A DNA stretch of 64,000 nucleotides, taken from the NCBI RefSeq assembly GCF_054482595.1, contig NZ_CM137008.1; one strand, written 5' to 3'. The notes under the pieces were generated by a model that was given only the letters and a program-made list of their open reading frames with translations, did not search any database and was not told where the DNA came from. Positions 3,954 to 31,880 of this stretch are shown here, piece by piece. A program made the position numbers and the translations under genes. The stretch's first letter is position 1. Every line of letters begins with the position of its first letter.

Positions 3954-4274
3954 ATGGAACCGGTCAAAATTAAACCATCTGTGGATTATATTGAAACCTA
4001 TGCGGACTTCGCTAGTTTTGCTCCACTACCGGGAGCGGAAAAAAATCTCATTTGTATACATTTTATCGCAAACAAGTCAATACCTGCGGTACTATCCCAA
4101 AATGATATACCAGATCAACCAGGTAGAGCGAATATGCAGATAGGCTCTGTAAATGAACTCAATCAGCAATGCACTGTGATAATGCCAATGGCACAACTAA
4201 AGGCTCTTCAGGAGAATATAGTTCTTCTTTTCGAACAATTAGAGGCACAAAACTCTAATGGAGCGAAGTCGTAA
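3954..4274 (+). CDS. Hypothetical protein ORF-A (~106 aa), first gene of cassette in rexA position
   Basis: ORF with GAGG Shine-Dalgarno 5 nt before ATG 3954 (alternative starts 3939/3942); stop overlaps ORF-B start (TAATG); no family recognised. Confidence 0.6.
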   Translation: MEPVKIKPSVDYIETYADFASFAPLPGAEKNLICIHFIANKSIPAVLSQNDIPDQPGRANMQIGSVNELNQQCTVIMPMAQLKALQENIVLLFEQLEAQNSNGAKS

Positions 4275-4957
4275 TGCAACAACCGGAAGAAGTAGGTGAT
4301 TTAACTATTACTTACAAAACATCAAGTATTGTTAAACCACTGCAAGTTTCCCTGAATAACGTTAATACTCGCGATTTCATGATGTTCATGGAAACAGCAA
4401 AAGGTAATCTGTTTTCTACGCCTATTTCCTCTTATTCACCAAAAAACATGGTGGATGATGCGACCAATTCCCAGCTAACTGCTACAATCGTAGATAAAGG
4501 AGGGGTTGCCGATTGTAAAGGACAATCTAATGTTATCCCACCGTACGAGGAAACTCCTATACAGGGAACCGCAATGTCCGATTTGAGCAGAAACGAAATA
4601 CAGGCACTTCTGAAGGCAAATAAAGCTGAAGTGGATGCAGTGGCCTCAAAAATGCAGGCTGATATGGCCAAATGGCGTGAACTAATGGCTTCAGATATAA
4701 AGGAGATGAAGCATTTAGTTGTTACTCAGCACGAACAAATCAACAGTCGTCTGGACATACAATCGAGTAGAATTGAGAGTGCCCTTGACTCCCAATCAAA
4801 AAAGATCGATGCAGCTCTTTCTGTTCAAGAGGCAAAGTTAGAAGGTAAGCTTAGTGATGTTAAGCTTGATATAATCAAATGGGCCCTTGGCTTGCCAGCA
4901 TTAGCATTTGCTGTATATAAAATCTACGGATTGCTCTCTGGAGTCTCAACCCCCTAA
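4274..4957 (+). CDS. Hypothetical tail-anchored membrane protein ORF-B (227 aa), in rexB position
   Basis: Translationally coupled to ORF-A; heptad-like/charged segment ~100-200; single C-terminal hydrophobic helix IIKWALGLPALAFAVYKIYGLL; no family recognised. Confidence 0.65.
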   Translation: MQQPEEVGDLTITYKTSSIVKPLQVSLNNVNTRDFMMFMETAKGNLFSTPISSYSPKNMVDDATNSQLTATIVDKGGVADCKGQSNVIPPYEETPIQGTAMSDLSRNEIQALLKANKAEVDAVASKMQADMAKWRELMASDIKEMKHLVVTQHEQINSRLDIQSSRIESALDSQSKKIDAALSVQEAKLEGKLSDVKLDIIKWALGLPALAFAVYKIYGLLSGVSTP

Positions 4958-5696: not shown

Positions 5697-6278
5697 TTAC
5701 TTGTTTTTGCCATGCTTATCCTGAGCGATAAGTTCATCCATAAGACTGTCTTTCTTCCCAGCAAACCTAATGTAGCACTCATTTCTATAGCGTTCCGGGA
5801 TAACAAAACGGTCGATTTCAGGATATCCAGTAGCAGAAGGTACCCGAATAAGAAGCCCTTTTTCGAGCAATGAGATTGCTTCAGGGCTTCCCTTTTCTGT
5901 CTTTAGCTGGTTATTAGCGGCTACAGCGAATGCCAAATACGCTCTTTCTCCAAGAGTTAACGAATCAAACAAATCTTGCACGTATTTCTCTTCTTTAGAT
6001 TTGCGCTTCTGAGCAGCGAATATCTCAATTCTTTCAGTCACAGCGTGATAAGCGGAATTAACAACGCCGTTAAGCACATAGCTAACGCAAAACAACAGGA
6101 TGTAATACATCCAGTAATGAGGAAGGATTTCTGGATTATGCAGGTTTATCCATTCTTTTACGCTTACAGGCATAACAATAATCAATATGATCAGGATGAT
6201 TAGCATATGAATCAACTGTTTAAGTGTCATTCCTTGCAGGAAAAAATGCATTAGTTCCTGCCACCATGAGTTGTTCAT
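5697..6278 (-). CDS. sieB: Superinfection exclusion protein B (193 aa), membrane protein
   Basis: Translation MNNSWWQELMHFFLQGMTLKQLIHMLIILIILIIVMPV... matches lambda SieB as recalled. Confidence 0.9.
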   Translation of the reverse strand: MNNSWWQELMHFFLQGMTLKQLIHMLIILIILIIVMPVSVKEWINLHNPEILPHYWMYYILLFCVSYVLNGVVNSAYHAVTERIEIFAAQKRKSKEEKYVQDLFDSLTLGERAYLAFAVAANNQLKTEKGSPEAISLLEKGLLIRVPSATGYPEIDRFVIPERYRNECYIRFAGKKDSLMDELIAQDKHGKNK

Positions 6279-9828: not shown

Positions 9829-10050
9829 ATGGCAGACATCATTGATTCAGCATCAGAAATTGAAGAATTACAGCGCAATACAGCAATAAAAATGCGTCGT
9901 CTGAACTACCAGACTATATCCGCCACTCATTGTTGTGAGTGTGGCGATCCCATAGATGAACGAAGACGCCTGGTCGTTCAGGGTTGTCGGACTTGTGCAA
10001 GTTGCCAGGAGGATCTGGAGCTTATCAGTAAACAGAGAGGTTCGAAGTGA
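9829..10050 (+). CDS. TraR/DksA-family C4 zinc-finger protein (73 aa)
   Basis: CxxC...CxxC motif (CCECGDPIDERRRLVVQGCRTCASCQ) typical of TraR/DksA-type phage proteins. Confidence 0.7.
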   Translation: MADIIDSASEIEELQRNTAIKMRRLNYQTISATHCCECGDPIDERRRLVVQGCRTCASCQEDLELISKQRGSK

Positions 10051-10454
10051 GCGAAATTAACTCTCAGGCACTGCGTGAAGCGGCAGAGAAAGCCGGTGAA
10101 GATAAGTGGCAGGCTAAAAAAATAAATGGTGATTTTTTCGTTATTCGTCACGGTAGTTATACAAGACAGCATGGCTACACATCGTATCAACCCATTGCGG
10201 AGATTGATTGTAAGCCAGTCCGGGATTTTGTTGCCAAGGCTAATCCGGCTACCGTGCTGGAATTACTGGATGAACTGGAAGCAGCAAAAAAGCGCATTGC
10301 AGAACTGGAAGCGCGGGAAATACTGCTCCCGGAACGTAGCAGCATGCTTCATCGAACAGATTTTCACGATGATTACCAAACGGTAATGGCATACAAAGTT
10401 TCTGAAGTCATCGATGCAATCCGCGCTACTGGCATTCGCATCAAAGGAGAGTGA
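10047..10454 (+). CDS. Ead/Ea22-like protein (135 aa), shortened/mosaic
   Basis: N-terminus MSEINSQALREAAE and C-terminus ...ATGIRIKGE as in lambda Ea22 family; coiled-coil motif LELLDELEAAKKRIAELEARE. Confidence 0.7.
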   Translation: MSEINSQALREAAEKAGEDKWQAKKINGDFFVIRHGSYTRQHGYTSYQPIAEIDCKPVRDFVAKANPATVLELLDELEAAKKRIAELEAREILLPERSSMLHRTDFHDDYQTVMAYKVSEVIDAIRATGIRIKGE

Positions 10455-10455
10455 G

Positions 10456-11211
10456 ATGATTCACTACCACGGTGGGCCTATTACTCCTGATACGTGCGCA
10501 ATGAGGGCATGGAAAGGGCGACATGCGTTTATCAGTTTTGCGCATTCAGGCCAGATCAATCTCGCGGCTGAATACTGTCAGTCGTTCGCGCTGGACAACG
10601 GTGCATTCACCGCCTGGAAAGCAGCTGGCAAAAACAAAATCGACTGGAGCGATTACTACGAGTTTGTTGCTCGCTGGAAGAATCACCCAGGATTCGATTT
10701 TGCCATTATCCCGGATATTATTGATGGCGGAGAGGAGGAAAATGATGCGCTTCTGAATGAGTGGCCTCACGGAAAACTAGCTGGCGTTCCAGTGTGGCAC
10801 ATGAATGAAAGTGACGCGCGATTTATTCATTTGTGCAATGAGTTTCCGCGAGTGGCTATCGGTAGTTGTGGCGACTATGACGTAAAGCGCCCAACTCTTG
10901 CGGTAGCCAGAATGAAAGACCTGATTCGTCACATTGTTGATGGGCATGGTCAGCCGGTTACGAAACTACATGGATTGCGCATGTTAAATCCGCTGATATT
11001 CACAAAATTACCCTTAGCCAGCGCAGATAGTACGAACGTCGCTCGAAACATCGGTATTGATAAAGCCTGGTCTAGGGCTTATGCACCTGCAAGTAAAGAG
11101 ACACGCGCAGCATTAATGGTAGAACGGATTGAGGCACACAATAGCCCTGGTTCTCTTGCGTATTGTGAACAACGCGACCGCTTTGAAATGCAATTGCAAC
11201 TAGCAGTTTAA
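10456..11211 (+). CDS. TGT-fold protein, candidate DpdA-like 7-deazaguanine DNA transglycosylase (251 aa)
   Basis: Strong SD AGGAG before ATG 10456; ordered motifs LDNGAF, FAIIPD, VAIGSCG, HGLRM, ADSTNVARN resembling tRNA-guanine transglycosylase motifs DSGGYQ, MAFDE, AVGG, HYLMGVG, FDCVLPTRSGRN; no zinc-binding subdomain; assignment by eye. Confidence 0.55.
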   Translation: MIHYHGGPITPDTCAMRAWKGRHAFISFAHSGQINLAAEYCQSFALDNGAFTAWKAAGKNKIDWSDYYEFVARWKNHPGFDFAIIPDIIDGGEEENDALLNEWPHGKLAGVPVWHMNESDARFIHLCNEFPRVAIGSCGDYDVKRPTLAVARMKDLIRHIVDGHGQPVTKLHGLRMLNPLIFTKLPLASADSTNVARNIGIDKAWSRAYAPASKETRAALMVERIEAHNSPGSLAYCEQRDRFEMQLQLAV

Positions 11212-11221
11212 GGACTAACAA

Positions 11222-12019
11222 ATGACCACTATTACCAAAGAACGTATTGAATTGTTCATTAAAAATCCGCTTGAAAACGGACTTACTCGTGGCGAACAAA
11301 TGGAACTGGCACGAATTGCACTGGCATCACTGGAACGCGAACTGATTCGCCACGAGCATGCCAAATGGTCTGACTCCACATTTGGCTGCGTTGGCCCCAT
11401 TGGTCCACTGAAACACCTCTCAAAAGAGGCTCTGGAAGCCGCAGCCGAACCAGACGATCTCAGCGAGTGGGCTGATATGCATTTCCTGTTGTGGGATGCA
11501 CAGCGCCGTGCTGGCATCAGCGATGCTGAAATTACCGCTGCTATGGAAGATAAATTGAAGATCAACATGGAGCGCCAGTGGCCTGAACCAATAGATGGTG
11601 AGCCTCGCTTGCACATTAAAGAACCCGGCAACTCTCCGGTAATTCCGGATGGTTTATCCACGGTATGCGCTGAGGCTTATCAGGTTGTAGGAGTTATGGC
11701 AGATGCGCTTGGTGTATTCGGTGATGCAGCAGTACAGAAAGTTCTGGATAACCTGTCACAGCAAAAACTTGTTCACAGAGATGTGCTGCCGTTCTCGCTT
11801 CCGGTGACTCCGGATGGTTGGATAAGCTGTAGTGAGCGAATGCCGAAAGAAACGGGTGACATTATTGTTGTTTCGGATGGCATTGTAATGTCCGGGATTT
11901 CTTATTCTCGTCGTGACGGGTTCTATATAGCCGCATTGGAGTACGACGACGATGAGCCAATTGGCGGTGTAACCCACTGGATGCCTCTACCAGAACCGCC
12001 TCGATTAAAGGAGCTATAA
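11222..12019 (+). CDS. Phage protein with N-terminal dATP/dGTP pyrophosphohydrolase-like (DUF550-like) region and C-terminal DUF551-like region (265 aa)
   Basis: C-terminal motif PDGWISCSERMPKE...THWMPLPEPP typical of DUF551; N-terminal acidic region (EWADMHFLLWDAQRR) resembles MazG-like nucleotide pyrophosphohydrolases; recalled, not searched. Confidence 0.6.
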   Translation: MTTITKERIELFIKNPLENGLTRGEQMELARIALASLERELIRHEHAKWSDSTFGCVGPIGPLKHLSKEALEAAAEPDDLSEWADMHFLLWDAQRRAGISDAEITAAMEDKLKINMERQWPEPIDGEPRLHIKEPGNSPVIPDGLSTVCAEAYQVVGVMADALGVFGDAAVQKVLDNLSQQKLVHRDVLPFSLPVTPDGWISCSERMPKETGDIIVVSDGIVMSGISYSRRDGFYIAALEYDDDEPIGGVTHWMPLPEPPRLKEL

Positions 12020-30202: not shown

Positions 30203-31747
30203 TTACCCCTGTTGCTGCGTCGGTTGTTCACTCTGCATCGCGCTCGGCCCCAGACGGGCATATTTCTGCATCAGGTAGACTTCGGCGATTAAGAACAGGG
30301 TGTAAAGCCCTACGATCATGATCAGTGAGAAAGCCAGTTGTCCTGTGGTTAAAGCGGAGTGCGCGGAGTATGTCGGTAAGATGTCCTGTATCGCCCACGG
30401 CTGACGACCAAACTCGGTCATAAACCACCCGGCTTCAATCGCAATCCACGGCAACGGCAAACTCCAGAGCGCCATTTTCAGCACCCAGCGATGCTGGTCG
30501 ATTTTGCCACGCAGCGTCTGGACAAGCGCAATCAGCATCACCAGTAGCAGCAGGGAACCACAGCCCACCATGATGCGGAAACTCCAGAATACCGGCGCAA
30601 CCTGAGGTATCGCGCCACGCATCGCCGCCTGGTACTGTGCGGCTGTGACATGATTCATATCCGGCGCATAGCGGGAGAGCAACATGCCGTAACCCAGGTC
30701 GCCTTCCAGCTCCCGGAATGCCTGCAACACATGCGGCTCACGATTGCCTTGCGATATTTCCTGCATTAACAGCCAGGCCATACGTCCGCGTTGCAAGCGT
30801 GGGTAGGTTTCAGCCATCAAATTCTTCAGACCCGGCACGGGTTTATCTAGTGAGTGAGTGGCGAGGATCCCTAACAGCGCGGGAATTTTGATGGCAAAGG
30901 CGTTACGCTCTTGATCCTGTTCCGGCCAGGCAACCACATGGAACGGTGCAGGAGCAGGTTCCGTTTGCCACTCCCCTTCCATCGCCGCCAGTTTTACCGG
31001 TTGTACTTGCGCGACTTCATACGCAGAACTGTCTCCGAGTTGCAGGGTACCGATAATCGCCAGAGTACCGAAGACGGAACCGATGGCAAACGAGCGTAAT
31101 GCGACATCGCGCTCCCGTCCGCGCAGTAAATACCAGGCGCTGATCGCCATAATAAACATGGCCCCGGTCACGTAGCCCGCCATTACGGTGTGCACAAATT
31201 TCACCTGGCTGACCGGGTTAAAGACCAGCTCGCTGAAGCTGGTCATCTCCATACGCAGGGTGTCGATATCAAAATGCGCACCGGTCGGGTATTGCATCCA
31301 ACCGTTGGCATTCAATATCCACAATGCAGAGAGATTTGAACCGAACGCCACCAGCCACGTCACCAGCAGGTGCTGGTATTTATTCAGCCGCTGCCAGCCG
31401 AAGAAGAAAAGCCCGACAAAGGTGGATTCGAGGAAGAAGGCCATTAATGCTTCCATCGCCAGCGGTGCGCCAAAAATATCGCCCACATAGTTGGAATAGA
31501 ATGACCAGTTAGTACCAAACTGAAACTCCATGGTCAGGCCGGTAGCCACGCCAAGAGCAAAGTTGATACCGAAGAGCTTACCCCAGAAGCGCGTCATATC
31601 GCGGTAGATTGTTTTGCCGGTGACCACGTAAATGGTTTCCATGATAGCCAGCAAAAAAATCAGCCCCAGGGTAAGGGGTACAAATAAAAAGTGATACAGC
31701 GCGGTCAGAGCAAACTGCCAGCGCGATAAATCAATGACATCCCACAT
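30203..31747 (-). CDS. appC: Cytochrome bd-II oxidase subunit I AppC (514 aa)
   Basis: Start at [15 protein letters not shown]; Q-loop-bearing subunit I. Confidence 0.9.
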
Positions 31748-31880
31748 GCGCACTCCTGTAGGCGAAGAGAGAAAAATAACCCGATAATGGTAGATCTCCC
31801 TCTTTATCCTGAAACTCTACGACCAGAGGTATTCGCCGATTGCGATATTCATAAGCCTGAAAGCGATACTTACCGTCTTT

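What the first reader, a model, noticed from the sequence alone, without database searches (positions are those of the whole stretch)
10456..11211. Solo TGT-fold (DpdA-like) gene in the exo-xis cargo region: possible 7-deazaguanine DNA modification using host preQ0
The 251-aa protein shows five motifs in the same order and similar spacing as tRNA-guanine transglycosylases: LDNGAF (cf. DSGGYQ), FAIIPD (cf. MAFDE), VAIGSCG (cf. AVGG), HGLRM (cf. HYLMGVG), ADSTNVARN (cf. FDCVLPTRSGRN with the catalytic Asp). It lacks the zinc-binding subdomain, as phage/island DpdA-type enzymes do. No queC/queD/queE/folE/gat-queC lies nearby, so it would depend on the host queuosine pathway for preQ0. A DNA-modification anti-restriction function in a lambda-backbone prophage would be notable. 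The assignment is by eye and needs profile confirmation.
Basis: partly seen in the sequence, partly recalled or inferred. Interest (0 to 1): 0.8.

Follow-up and report, generated by a model that had tools for sequence, protein, structure and literature searches.

The report
Solo phage DpdA gene, already catalogued
The gene is real and belongs to the phage DpdA family, enzymes that swap guanine in DNA for a 7-deazaguanine base, but near-identical "DpdA-only" genes in Salmonella, Shigella and E. coli temperate phages were listed in 2019, so only its activity and biological role remain untested.

Summary
Window 10456..11211 (+) is an intact 251-aa gene in the exo-xis region of a lambda-like prophage inserted between torS and torT. 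It is 100% identical to E. coli EC5502.

The assignment to the DpdA / TGT-like family holds:
- PHROG 887, "queuine tRNA-ribosyltransferase": E 3e-101.
- hhalign against the experimentally validated CAjan DpdA: probability 99%, E 9e-18.
- 39% identity to the solo DpdA of phage MED16.
- dN/dS about 0.02.

The gene is solo: the whole prophage has no que or folE genes, and queC is in 5424 of 5426 complete E. coli genomes.

It is not new. Hutinet et al. 2019 list its 92%-identical SPN3UB orthologue, plus SfI and HK106, among 76 "DpdA-only" phages and propose host-supplied preQ0.

Tested solo-DpdA phages show only trace modification: 7-11 has 0.02% and MED16 0.13% of G as dADG. MED16 DNA showed no protection against the restriction enzymes tried. 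An anti-restriction role is therefore unproven. Pfam, NCBIfam, PADLOC and PGAP all miss the gene.

The parts
10456..11211 (+). dpdA-like gene (251 aa plus stop): solo phage DNA-guanine transglycosylase homologue
10444..10449 (+). Shine-Dalgarno AAGGAG, 6 nt before the ATG. The upstream gene's TGA stop is at 10452-10454, so the two genes are tightly packed and probably translationally coupled.
   Evidence: Read directly from the sequence. The same abutting or overlapping junction with the upstream gene is seen in SPN3UB, AH07, RothC and SfI.
10594..10596 (+). Codon for D47 (LDNGAF): predicted general acid/base
   Evidence: Invariant in 51 homologues. Aligns with CAjan LDSGAF. CAjan LDSGAF in turn aligns with TGT TDSGGFQ. 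Lies at the end of strand beta3. Equivalence to bDpdA D95 and F99 (D-x3-F spacing) is inferred.
10714..10716 (+). Codon for D87 (FAIIPD): predicted base-recognition aspartate
   Evidence: At least 90% conserved. Lies just after strand beta4. Aligns with IPPD of a cyanobacterial dpd-cluster TGT-like protein. In CAjan the aligned position is Ser and the shared Asp is three residues later (D90 in this protein), so this assignment is the least certain.
10798..10800 (+).
   Evidence: At least 90% conserved. Aligns with CAjan CFH. Lies at the end of strand beta5. Equivalence to bDpdA H181 is inferred from position only.
10969..10971 (+). Codon for H172 (KLHGLRM)
   Evidence: Invariant. Aligns with CAjan KLHAFG and with LHVFG / LHLFG of dpd-cluster proteins. 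Lies in strand beta7.
11026..11028 (+). Codon for D191 (SADST): predicted catalytic nucleophile
   Evidence: Invariant together with S189 and S192. Aligns with CAjan SCDSS and with bDpdA-type SVDSS / SFDSA. Lies in strand beta8. Equivalence to bDpdA D256 and TGT D264/D280 is inferred.

Best explanation
The gene encodes a phage-type DpdA, a zinc-less, minimal TIM-barrel relative of tRNA-guanine transglycosylase. It belongs to the "DpdA-only" group of temperate phages of gamma-proteobacteria.

**Expression (inferred).** It is transcribed with the delayed-early pL operon during lytic growth, alongside the recombination genes.

**Mechanism (by analogy with bDpdA and TGT, not shown here).** The enzyme flips out a guanine at a short recognition motif in double-stranded DNA. 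D191 displaces the base and forms a covalent enzyme-deoxyribose intermediate. D47 acts as general acid/base. A free 7-deazaguanine base then resolves the intermediate.

**Substrate source.** The prophage has no preQ0 synthesis genes, so the base must come from the host queuosine pathway or from salvage. It could be preQ0, or possibly preQ1 or the QueC intermediate ADG.

**Expected outcome.** Judging from tested solo-DpdA phages and from 9g DpdA expressed alone in E. coli, replacement should be sparse, roughly 0.02-0.3% of G, rather than bulk substitution. What that sparse mark is for is not established. Candidates are anti-restriction, evasion of a specific defence, or something else.

**Shown here:** homology, fold, conservation, purifying selection, solo status and host queC ubiquity. 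**Inferred:** catalysis, substrate, timing and role.
For: **Family membership.**
- PHROG 887 E 3.3e-101. The same PHROG holds CAjan DpdA (8e-96), MED16 gp38 and Epa33 gp11.
- CAjan DpdA is validated: the dpdA deletion loses all dPreQ0 (PMC6884629).
- hhalign of the 51-sequence profile against CAjan DpdA: probability 99%, E 8.9e-18 over 175 columns. BLASTP E 7e-9.
- 39% identity, E 2e-43, to MED16 gp38. The literature HHpred for MED16 gp38 hits T. maritima TGT at 99.2% (PMC8306585).

**Fold.**
- AF2 pLDDT 93.4, pTM 0.90, eight-stranded barrel.
- Foldseek against BFVD: 27 hits at E <= 0.001, and every named hit down to rank 30 is a phage queuine or tRNA-guanine transglycosylase.

**Active site.** D47, H172 and D191 are invariant. 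D87, H115 and G136 are at least 90% conserved. All lie at strand C-termini.

**Function is maintained.** dN/dS is 0.024 with synonymous sites near saturation.

**Contextual links to 7-deazaguanine and DNA modification in homologues.**
- A 54%-identical homologue is followed by a Vut_1/YhhQ-family gene, the preQ0-transporter family.
- A 41%-identical homologue is a QueD::DpdA fusion.
- A 46%-identical homologue is a Dam::DpdA fusion sitting where P2/186-like prophages carry a DNA methylase.
- The Epa33 homologue abuts a C5-cytosine methylase.

**Solo status and host supply.**
- No que or folE genes in the whole prophage.
- queC is present in 5424 of 5426 complete E. coli genomes.
- 9g DpdA expressed alone in E. 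coli inserts dPreQ0 at 0.03-0.3% of G from host precursor.

**Expression.** No + strand promoter-like site lies between 9000 and 13000.
Against: - No direct biochemical evidence exists for this protein or for any lambdoid orthologue. None was found in six literature searches.
- HMM-level searches fail. Pfam gives no hit for the query, for any of the 51 homologues, or for CAjan DpdA. NCBIfam, PADLOC DpdA and PDB sequences also give nothing.
- My profile-profile tests against a 9-sequence bacterial TGT alignment (E 0.22) and single bDpdA-type sequences (E 0.014 and 0.028) were not significant. They did align the expected motifs.
- Hutinet et al. noted that gamma-proteobacterial singleton DpdAs form their own similarity cluster and may have diverged functionally.
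- Tested solo-DpdA phages carry dADG, not dPreQ0, at trace levels. MED16 showed no restriction protection.
Confidence: 0.72

Rival explanations
1. It is a Cap10-like enzyme. This would be a TGT-fold protein that handles a 7-deazaguanine attached to a protein, or transfers it to a non-DNA target, acting as prophage-encoded defence or counter-defence cargo rather than as a DNA modifier.
Against: No Cap9/QueC-like gene or CD-NTase is in the prophage. PADLOC returns no model at all at E <= 10. Significant sequence similarity is to CAjan DpdA, which acts on DNA. The gene sits in the lytic early operon among recombination and replication genes. Homologues are fused or adjacent to DNA methyltransferases. 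The Cap10 lead over bDpdA is 0.7 Z units.
Confidence: 0.05
2. It is a phage-encoded tRNA-guanine transglycosylase that alters host or phage tRNA (queuosine-type modification at position 34) to tune translation during infection.
For: PHROGs, RefSeq (SfI) and several phage records name the family "queuine tRNA-ribosyltransferase" or "tRNA transferase". It has the same fold and catalytic motifs as TGT.
Against: Those names are transferred from remote homology, not from assays. The protein lacks the zinc subdomain, and its barrel starts at residue 2, leaving no room for TGT's N-terminal beta-sheet lid. No Pfam PF01702 or NCBIfam Tgt hit. E. coli already has Tgt. The validated relatives (CAjan, 9g) modify DNA.
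Confidence: 0.05
3. It is a functionally diverged barrel. It would keep the DpdA scaffold but now act as a plain DNA glycosylase or hydrolase, or insert a different base, or serve a regulatory or binding role with no 7-deazaguanine chemistry.
For: Singleton DpdAs of gamma-proteobacterial phages form a separate similarity cluster, and the authors raised possible functional divergence. Mycobacteriophage Orion has a solo DpdA yet no modification. MED16 and 7-11 show only trace dADG.
Against: The full set of catalytic and base-contact positions is invariant or nearly so, under strong purifying selection. YhhQ-family and QueD associations in 41-54% identical homologues tie the subfamily to 7-deazaguanine precursors. 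Orion's host lacks preQ0 synthesis, which explains its negative result.
Confidence: 0.15

Closest known systems
"DpdA-only" (group 3) phage DpdAs of Hutinet et al. 2019: Salmonella phage SPN3UB YP_007011024, Enterobacteria phage SfI YP_009147480, HK106, BTP1, SEN1, 7-11
   Same: Direct orthologues: 92% identity to SPN3UB and 67% to SfI. Same length. Also solo genes in early operons of lambdoid temperate phages. SfI carries it in the same exo-xis region. Same published inference of host-supplied preQ0.
   Different: None of substance. This copy is in an E. coli prophage at torS/torT and is labelled "hypothetical protein". SPN3UB, AH07 and RothC carry the gene in the nin region instead.
Pantoea phage MED16 gp38 (solo DpdA; DNA carries 0.13% of G as dADG)
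   Same: 39% identity over residues 3-199, E 2e-43. Same PHROG. All motifs are conserved. Also solo, with host precursor presumed.
   Different: MED16 was isolated and propagated as a siphovirus with a Dam methylase nearby. The C-terminal about 50 residues do not align.
Escherichia phage CAjan DpdA (DpdA1; about 32% of G replaced by dPreQ0; lost in the dpdA deletion)
   Same: hhalign probability 99%. LD(N/S)GAF, (W/F)H, IG(S/G), KLH and (A/C)DS(T/S) motifs with near-identical spacing. No zinc motif in either protein. Same PHROG 887.
   Different: Only 25% identity. CAjan has an N-terminal extension of about 15 residues and a different C-terminus. It is encoded next to folE, queD, queE, queC and a preQ0 transporter gene and reaches bulk modification.
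Bacterial DpdA of the Dpd restriction-modification island (PDB 7UI4)
   Different: bDpdA is 413-436 aa with four insertions, including a large Ins8 and a structural zinc site. It needs the DpdB ATPase. No PADLOC DpdA hit here and no dpdB-K genes.
tRNA-guanine transglycosylase (E. coli Tgt, PF01702)
   Different: No HMM or significant profile match. No CxCxxC...H zinc subdomain. About 125 residues shorter. The validated relatives act on DNA rather than tRNA.

Membership tests
Phage DpdA (DpdA1-like, PHROG 887) | Significant sequence or profile similarity to an experimentally validated phage DpdA | tested here: met
   hhalign against CAjan DpdA: probability 99%, E 8.9e-18. BLASTP 7e-9. PHROG 887 E 3.3e-101, the same family as CAjan.
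Phage DpdA (DpdA1-like, PHROG 887) | TGT-like (beta/alpha)8 barrel | tested here: met
Phage DpdA (DpdA1-like, PHROG 887) | Conserved catalytic aspartates (general acid/base and nucleophile) and conserved histidine | tested here: met
   D47, H172 and D191 are invariant and H115 is at least 90% conserved in 51 homologues. They align with CAjan D63, H187, D206 and H132. Spatial equivalence to bDpdA D95 and D256 was not checked by superposition.
Phage DpdA (DpdA1-like, PHROG 887) | Gene-dependent 7-deazaguanine deoxynucleoside in DNA | not testable with these tools
   Needs LC-MS/MS. Published only for relatives: CAjan, 9g, MED16 and 7-11.
"DpdA-only" group 3 (Hutinet 2019) | DpdA present with no folE, queD, queE, queC or amidotransferase in the same phage genome | tested here: met
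   Annotation of the complete identical prophage in EC5502 shows none. The nin-region PAPS-reductase-family gene sits in the usual nin-gene block between ninB and ninD and is not annotated as QueC.
"DpdA-only" group 3 (Hutinet 2019) | Host encodes the preQ0 pathway | tested here: met
   queC is in 5424 of 5426 complete E. coli genomes. Only queC was tested, and EC5502 was not looked up individually.
tRNA-guanine transglycosylase (PF01702, NCBIfam Tgt) | Match to the family HMM | tested here: not met
   No Pfam hit at E <= 10 for the query or any of 51 homologues. No NCBIfam hit. hhalign against a 9-sequence TGT alignment gave E 0.22.
tRNA-guanine transglycosylase (PF01702, NCBIfam Tgt) | C-terminal zinc-binding subdomain (CxCxxC...H) | tested here: not met
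   The motif is absent from the sequence, unlike E. coli Tgt CDCYTC...H. The model ends in two helices after beta8.
Bacterial Dpd system DpdA (PADLOC PDLC02807) | HMM match and neighbouring dpdB-dpdK genes | tested here: not met
   No PADLOC hit at E <= 10. No dpd genes in the prophage or flanks.
Cap10 (type IV CBASS) | Operon with a Cap9 (QueC-like) gene and a CD-NTase | tested here: not met

The most novel reading that the evidence does not exclude
Solo DpdAs of temperate enterobacterial phages may not be bulk anti-restriction devices. They could be sparse, site-specific epigenetic writers that use host queuosine intermediates. They might insert ADG, the QueC intermediate, directly, which would explain why 7-11 and MED16 carry dADG without any DpdC-like oxidase. 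The mark could serve a dedicated purpose, for example mimicking the self-mark of bacterial Dpd restriction-modification islands, or evading or triggering one specific defence. This has not been tested for any lambdoid phage.
Probability: 0.15. Interest if true: 0.6.

Novelty: already known. Interest (0 to 1): 0.25.

Why it matters
As a discovery it matters little. The family, its solo occurrence in temperate phages of Enterobacteria and the host-preQ0 hypothesis were published in 2019.

Two modest points remain:
- **An annotation gap.** This allele is in 203 and the SfI-like allele in 100 of 5426 complete E. coli genomes. The listed rows are all labelled "hypothetical protein". No Pfam, NCBIfam or PADLOC model detects either allele.
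- **An open biological question.** Why is a solo enzyme that seems to install only trace modification kept under very strong purifying selection (dN/dS 0.02) across Escherichia, Salmonella, Pantoea, Klebsiella, Vibrio and beyond? A lambda-like prophage of E. coli is the most tractable system in which to answer that, because que mutants, inducible lysogens and defined defence systems are all available.

Tried and rejected
**HMM and sequence searches that found nothing.**
- Pfam hmmscan of the query, of all 51 homologues and of CAjan DpdA. This is uninformative, because the validated enzyme is missed too.
- NCBIfam.
- PADLOC: no hit for this protein. CAjan hits DpdA only weakly, at E 0.0013.
- phmmer and hmmsearch against PDB sequences with the query, the A1 profile and CAjan DpdA. 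The only matches were chance GCN4 coiled-coil hits.

**Profile-profile tests that were not significant.**
- A1 against single E. coli Tgt.
- A1 against a 9-species TGT alignment that I assembled from chromids and plasmids. Result: E 0.22.
- The TGT alignment against CAjan DpdA: E 0.1.
- A1 against two cyanobacterial dpd-cluster proteins: E 0.014 and 0.028.
- These alignments were shallow and had no secondary-structure term. Each still paired the expected motif. I count them as inconclusive, not as negative.

**Ideas considered and dropped.**
- The downstream dATP/dGTP pyrophosphohydrolase-domain gene as a functional partner: the neighbours differ in SfI, SPN3UB, AH07 and RothC.
- The nin-region PAPS-reductase-family gene as a cryptic QueC: it sits in the usual nin-gene block between ninB and ninD and is not annotated as QueC.
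- The 10414 start codon (see the observation check).

**Literature.** A search for any experimental test of a lambdoid solo DpdA found none. The EcoSal review PMC11163837 is not held.

Full report
**1. The observation**

Window 10456..11211 (+) is an intact ORF. The mechanical ORF begins at ATG 10414. The biologically supported start is ATG 10456, for four reasons:
- Every homologue starts MIHYHG or MIHFHG.
- PGAP uses this start in the identical gene of E. coli EC5502 (WP_072650491.1, "hypothetical protein").
- AAGGAG lies 6 nt upstream.
- The upstream Ea22-like gene stops at 10452-10454.

The first 14 kb of the window are 100% identical to the EC5502 chromosome. There they form the early region of a complete lambda-like prophage inserted between torS and torT. 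No + strand promoter-like site occurs between 9000 and 13000. The gene is therefore most simply part of the pL delayed-early transcript. This is an inference.

**2. Are the motifs meaningful?**

I aligned 51 homologues with 33-93% identity to the query. The conserved columns are:
- Invariant: D47, H172, S189, D191, S192.
- At least 90% conserved: H5, G6, A50, W54, P86, D87, I89, G91, N96, P112, V113, H115, E118, L126, G136, G165, G173, L174, R175, P186, E226.

AlphaFold2 on this alignment gives a confident model (mean pLDDT 93.4, pTM 0.90) with eight beta strands alternating with helices. The conserved residues sit at or just after strand C-termini, the canonical TIM-barrel active-site face:

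| Residue | Strand |
|---|---|
| D47 | beta3 |
| D87 | beta4 |
| H115 | beta5 |
| G136 | beta6 |
| H172-G173 | beta7 |
| D191 | beta8 |

The published bDpdA active site is D95/F99, D130, H181, G206-G207, L236 and D256 (PMC10164549). It has the same order and similar spacing, including the D-x3-F of LDNGAF. This residue-by-residue equivalence is inferred from order, spacing and local alignments. I could not superpose coordinates.

**3. Homology**

Simple HMM searches fail:
- Pfam: no hit for the query or any of the 51 homologues.
- NCBIfam: no hit.
- PADLOC: no hit.
- PDB sequences: no relevant hit.

The same is true of the experimentally validated CAjan DpdA. It has no Pfam hit and no PDB hit, and reaches only E 0.0013 against PADLOC DpdA. 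These negatives therefore carry no weight.

Positive evidence:
- PHROG 887, "queuine tRNA-ribosyltransferase", at E 3.3e-101. This family also contains CAjan DpdA (8.2e-96), MED16 gp38 (3e-70) and Pseudomonas phage Epa33 gp11.
- hhalign of the 51-sequence profile against CAjan DpdA: probability 99%, E 8.9e-18 over 175 columns. BLASTP gives 7e-9.
- BLASTP against MED16 gp38: 39% identity, E 2e-43.

CAjan's motifs are LDSGAF, CFH, ITIGG, KLHAFG and SCDSS. Their spacings (69, 21, 34, 19) are almost identical to those here (68, 21, 36, 19).

My own profile-profile tests against canonical TGT and bDpdA-type sequences were not significant:
- E 0.22 against a 9-species TGT alignment.
- E 0.014 and 0.028 against two cyanobacterial dpd-cluster proteins.
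- E 0.1 for the TGT alignment against CAjan.

Each of these nevertheless paired the expected motifs: VAIGS with YAIGGL, KLHGL with LHVFG, SADST with SVDSS, and TDSGGFQ with LDSGAF. For the 39%-identical MED16 protein, the literature reports HHpred probability 99.18% to T. maritima TGT (PMC8306585).

**4. Fold**

- Foldseek against PDB: generic TIM barrels only.
- Foldseek against BFVD: 27 hits at E <= 0.001, down to 6.5e-19. Every named hit down to rank 30 is a phage queuine or tRNA-guanine transglycosylase, and that stretch also includes an uncharacterised protein of Cellulophaga phage phiST. The first unrelated barrel appears at rank 31.

The fold evidence is supportive. It becomes convincing in combination with the sequence link to CAjan.

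**5. Zinc subdomain**

The protein has no CxCxxC...H motif, unlike E. coli Tgt. Neither does CAjan DpdA. Cap10 also lacks the site. bDpdA keeps it.

**6. Solo status and precursor supply**

The complete prophage carries no queC, queD, queE, folE or amidotransferase gene. The rest of the window corresponds to ordinary core chromosome, torS to pyrD. Collinearity beyond 14 kb is assumed from the EC5502 record.

queC is present in 5424 of 5426 complete E. coli genomes. Published work shows that 9g DpdA expressed alone in E. coli inserts dPreQ0 into plasmid DNA at 0.03-0.3% of G using host precursor. A DpdA2 expressed alone in wild-type E. coli inserts mainly preQ1, and inserts preQ0 only in a queF deletion. 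The base actually used by this enzyme in a wild-type host is therefore open.

**7. Evidence that the gene is functional and linked to 7-deazaguanine and DNA modification**

Purifying selection:
- Against the SPN3UB orthologue, pN is 0.046 and pS is 0.70, giving dN/dS of 0.024.
- For more distant pairs, synonymous sites are saturated while pN stays at 0.06-0.23.

Context:
- The genomic position is not fixed. The gene is in the exo-xis region here and in SfI, and in the nin region after the replication genes in SPN3UB, AH07 and RothC.
- Its neighbours differ in each case, so it is a self-contained cassette without an obligatory partner.

Associations in more distant homologues:
- P0122 (54% identity) is followed immediately by a Vut_1/YhhQ-family gene, the preQ0/preQ1 transporter family also encoded by CAjan.
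- P0270 (41%) is a QueD::DpdA fusion.
- P0234 (46%) is a Dam::DpdA fusion located where P2/186-like prophages carry a DNA methylase.
- Epa33 gp11 (46%) abuts a C5-cytosine methylase.
- MED16 gp38 lies 1.2 kb from a Dam-type methylase.

The fusions are single metagenomic gene calls and could be frameshift artefacts. Even then they show adjacency.

**8. What is already known**

Hutinet et al. [quoted passage not shown] Their Supplementary Data 1 lists SPN3UB YP_007011024, SfI YP_009147480, HK106, BTP1, SEN1 and 7-11. SPN3UB is 92% identical, SfI 67% and HK106 about 35% identical to this protein.

The authors note that singleton DpdAs from gamma-proteobacterial phages form their own similarity cluster, and that their function needs study. 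Experimental results on solo-DpdA phages:

| Phage | Result |
|---|---|
| 7-11 | 0.02% of G as dADG |
| Orion (host lacks preQ0 synthesis) | no modification |
| MED16 | 0.13% of G as dADG; cut by G-containing restriction enzymes; resistant only to the Dam-sensitive ones |

I found no paper testing a lambdoid solo DpdA.

**9. Verdict**

It is a sharper call than current automated annotation, since PGAP, Pfam, NCBIfam and PADLOC all miss the gene. The entity and the host-precursor idea are published, and a 92%-identical orthologue is explicitly catalogued.

Two things remain untested: catalysis by this subgroup, and what sparse modification is for. An anti-restriction role should be treated as a hypothesis with weak support.

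**Prevalence.** This allele is in 203 and the SfI-like allele in 100 of 5426 complete E. coli genomes. The wider family has 780 representatives at 50% identity with E <= 0.001.

Noticed in passing
window 11222-12019 (+): The gene just downstream is a 265-aa mosaic. It has a short N-terminal segment, a central dATP/dGTP pyrophosphohydrolase-type domain (PGAP's name for the EC5502 copy) and a separate C-terminal module, each matching different PHROGs. PGAP splits it into a partial pseudogene plus a shorter CDS, although the ORF is continuous here. A dGTP-hydrolysing neighbour of a guanine-replacing enzyme is suggestive, but the neighbour is different in SfI, SPN3UB, AH07 and RothC.
   Followed up: partly
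window 3954-4274 and 4274-4957 (+): Two co-oriented, abutting genes of unknown function (106 and 227 aa) sit directly after the cI-like repressor, where lambda and SfI carry rexA/rexB. The second matches only PHROG 14825 (unknown function). There is no credible PADLOC hit. This could be an uncharacterised lysogen-expressed exclusion or defence pair.
   Followed up: partly
window 5697-6278 (-): A SieB superinfection-exclusion gene lies opposite the N-like antiterminator region (annotation of the identical EC5502 prophage).
   Followed up: no
window 10047-10454 (+) and homologous loci L009, L011: The dpdA-like gene is repeatedly flanked by Ea22/Ead/Eaa-like genes whether it sits in the exo-xis or the nin region. 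Its start abuts or overlaps the upstream stop by up to 4 nt. This suggests it moves as a cassette between Ea22-type recombination hot spots.
   Followed up: partly
L020 (Picosynechococcus sp. PCC 73109 plasmid NZ_CP014001.1), 718-9047: A plasmid-borne dpd-like cluster has two TGT-fold genes: a 691-aa "DpdA" and a 307-aa "tRNA-guanine transglycosylase". They are interleaved with two DEAD/DEAH helicases. I used it only as a source of comparison sequences.
   Followed up: no
L025 6001-7266 (Logan SRR27214370 contig, P2/186-like prophage): A 421-aa Dam-methyltransferase::DpdA-like fusion, with the Dam domain truncated at about residue 195 of 267, lies between a TraR-like gene and the GPA replication gene. 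It is either a real bifunctional DNA-modification protein or a frameshift join of adjacent genes.
   Followed up: partly
E. coli plasmid NZ_CP130669.1 (SM107, 111 kb), 31063-31818: A 100%-identical copy of the gene, with most of the same early region, lies on a 111-kb record typed as a plasmid. Five of the 217 E. coli matches are on plasmids. This may be a phage-plasmid or an assembly or labelling issue.
   Followed up: no
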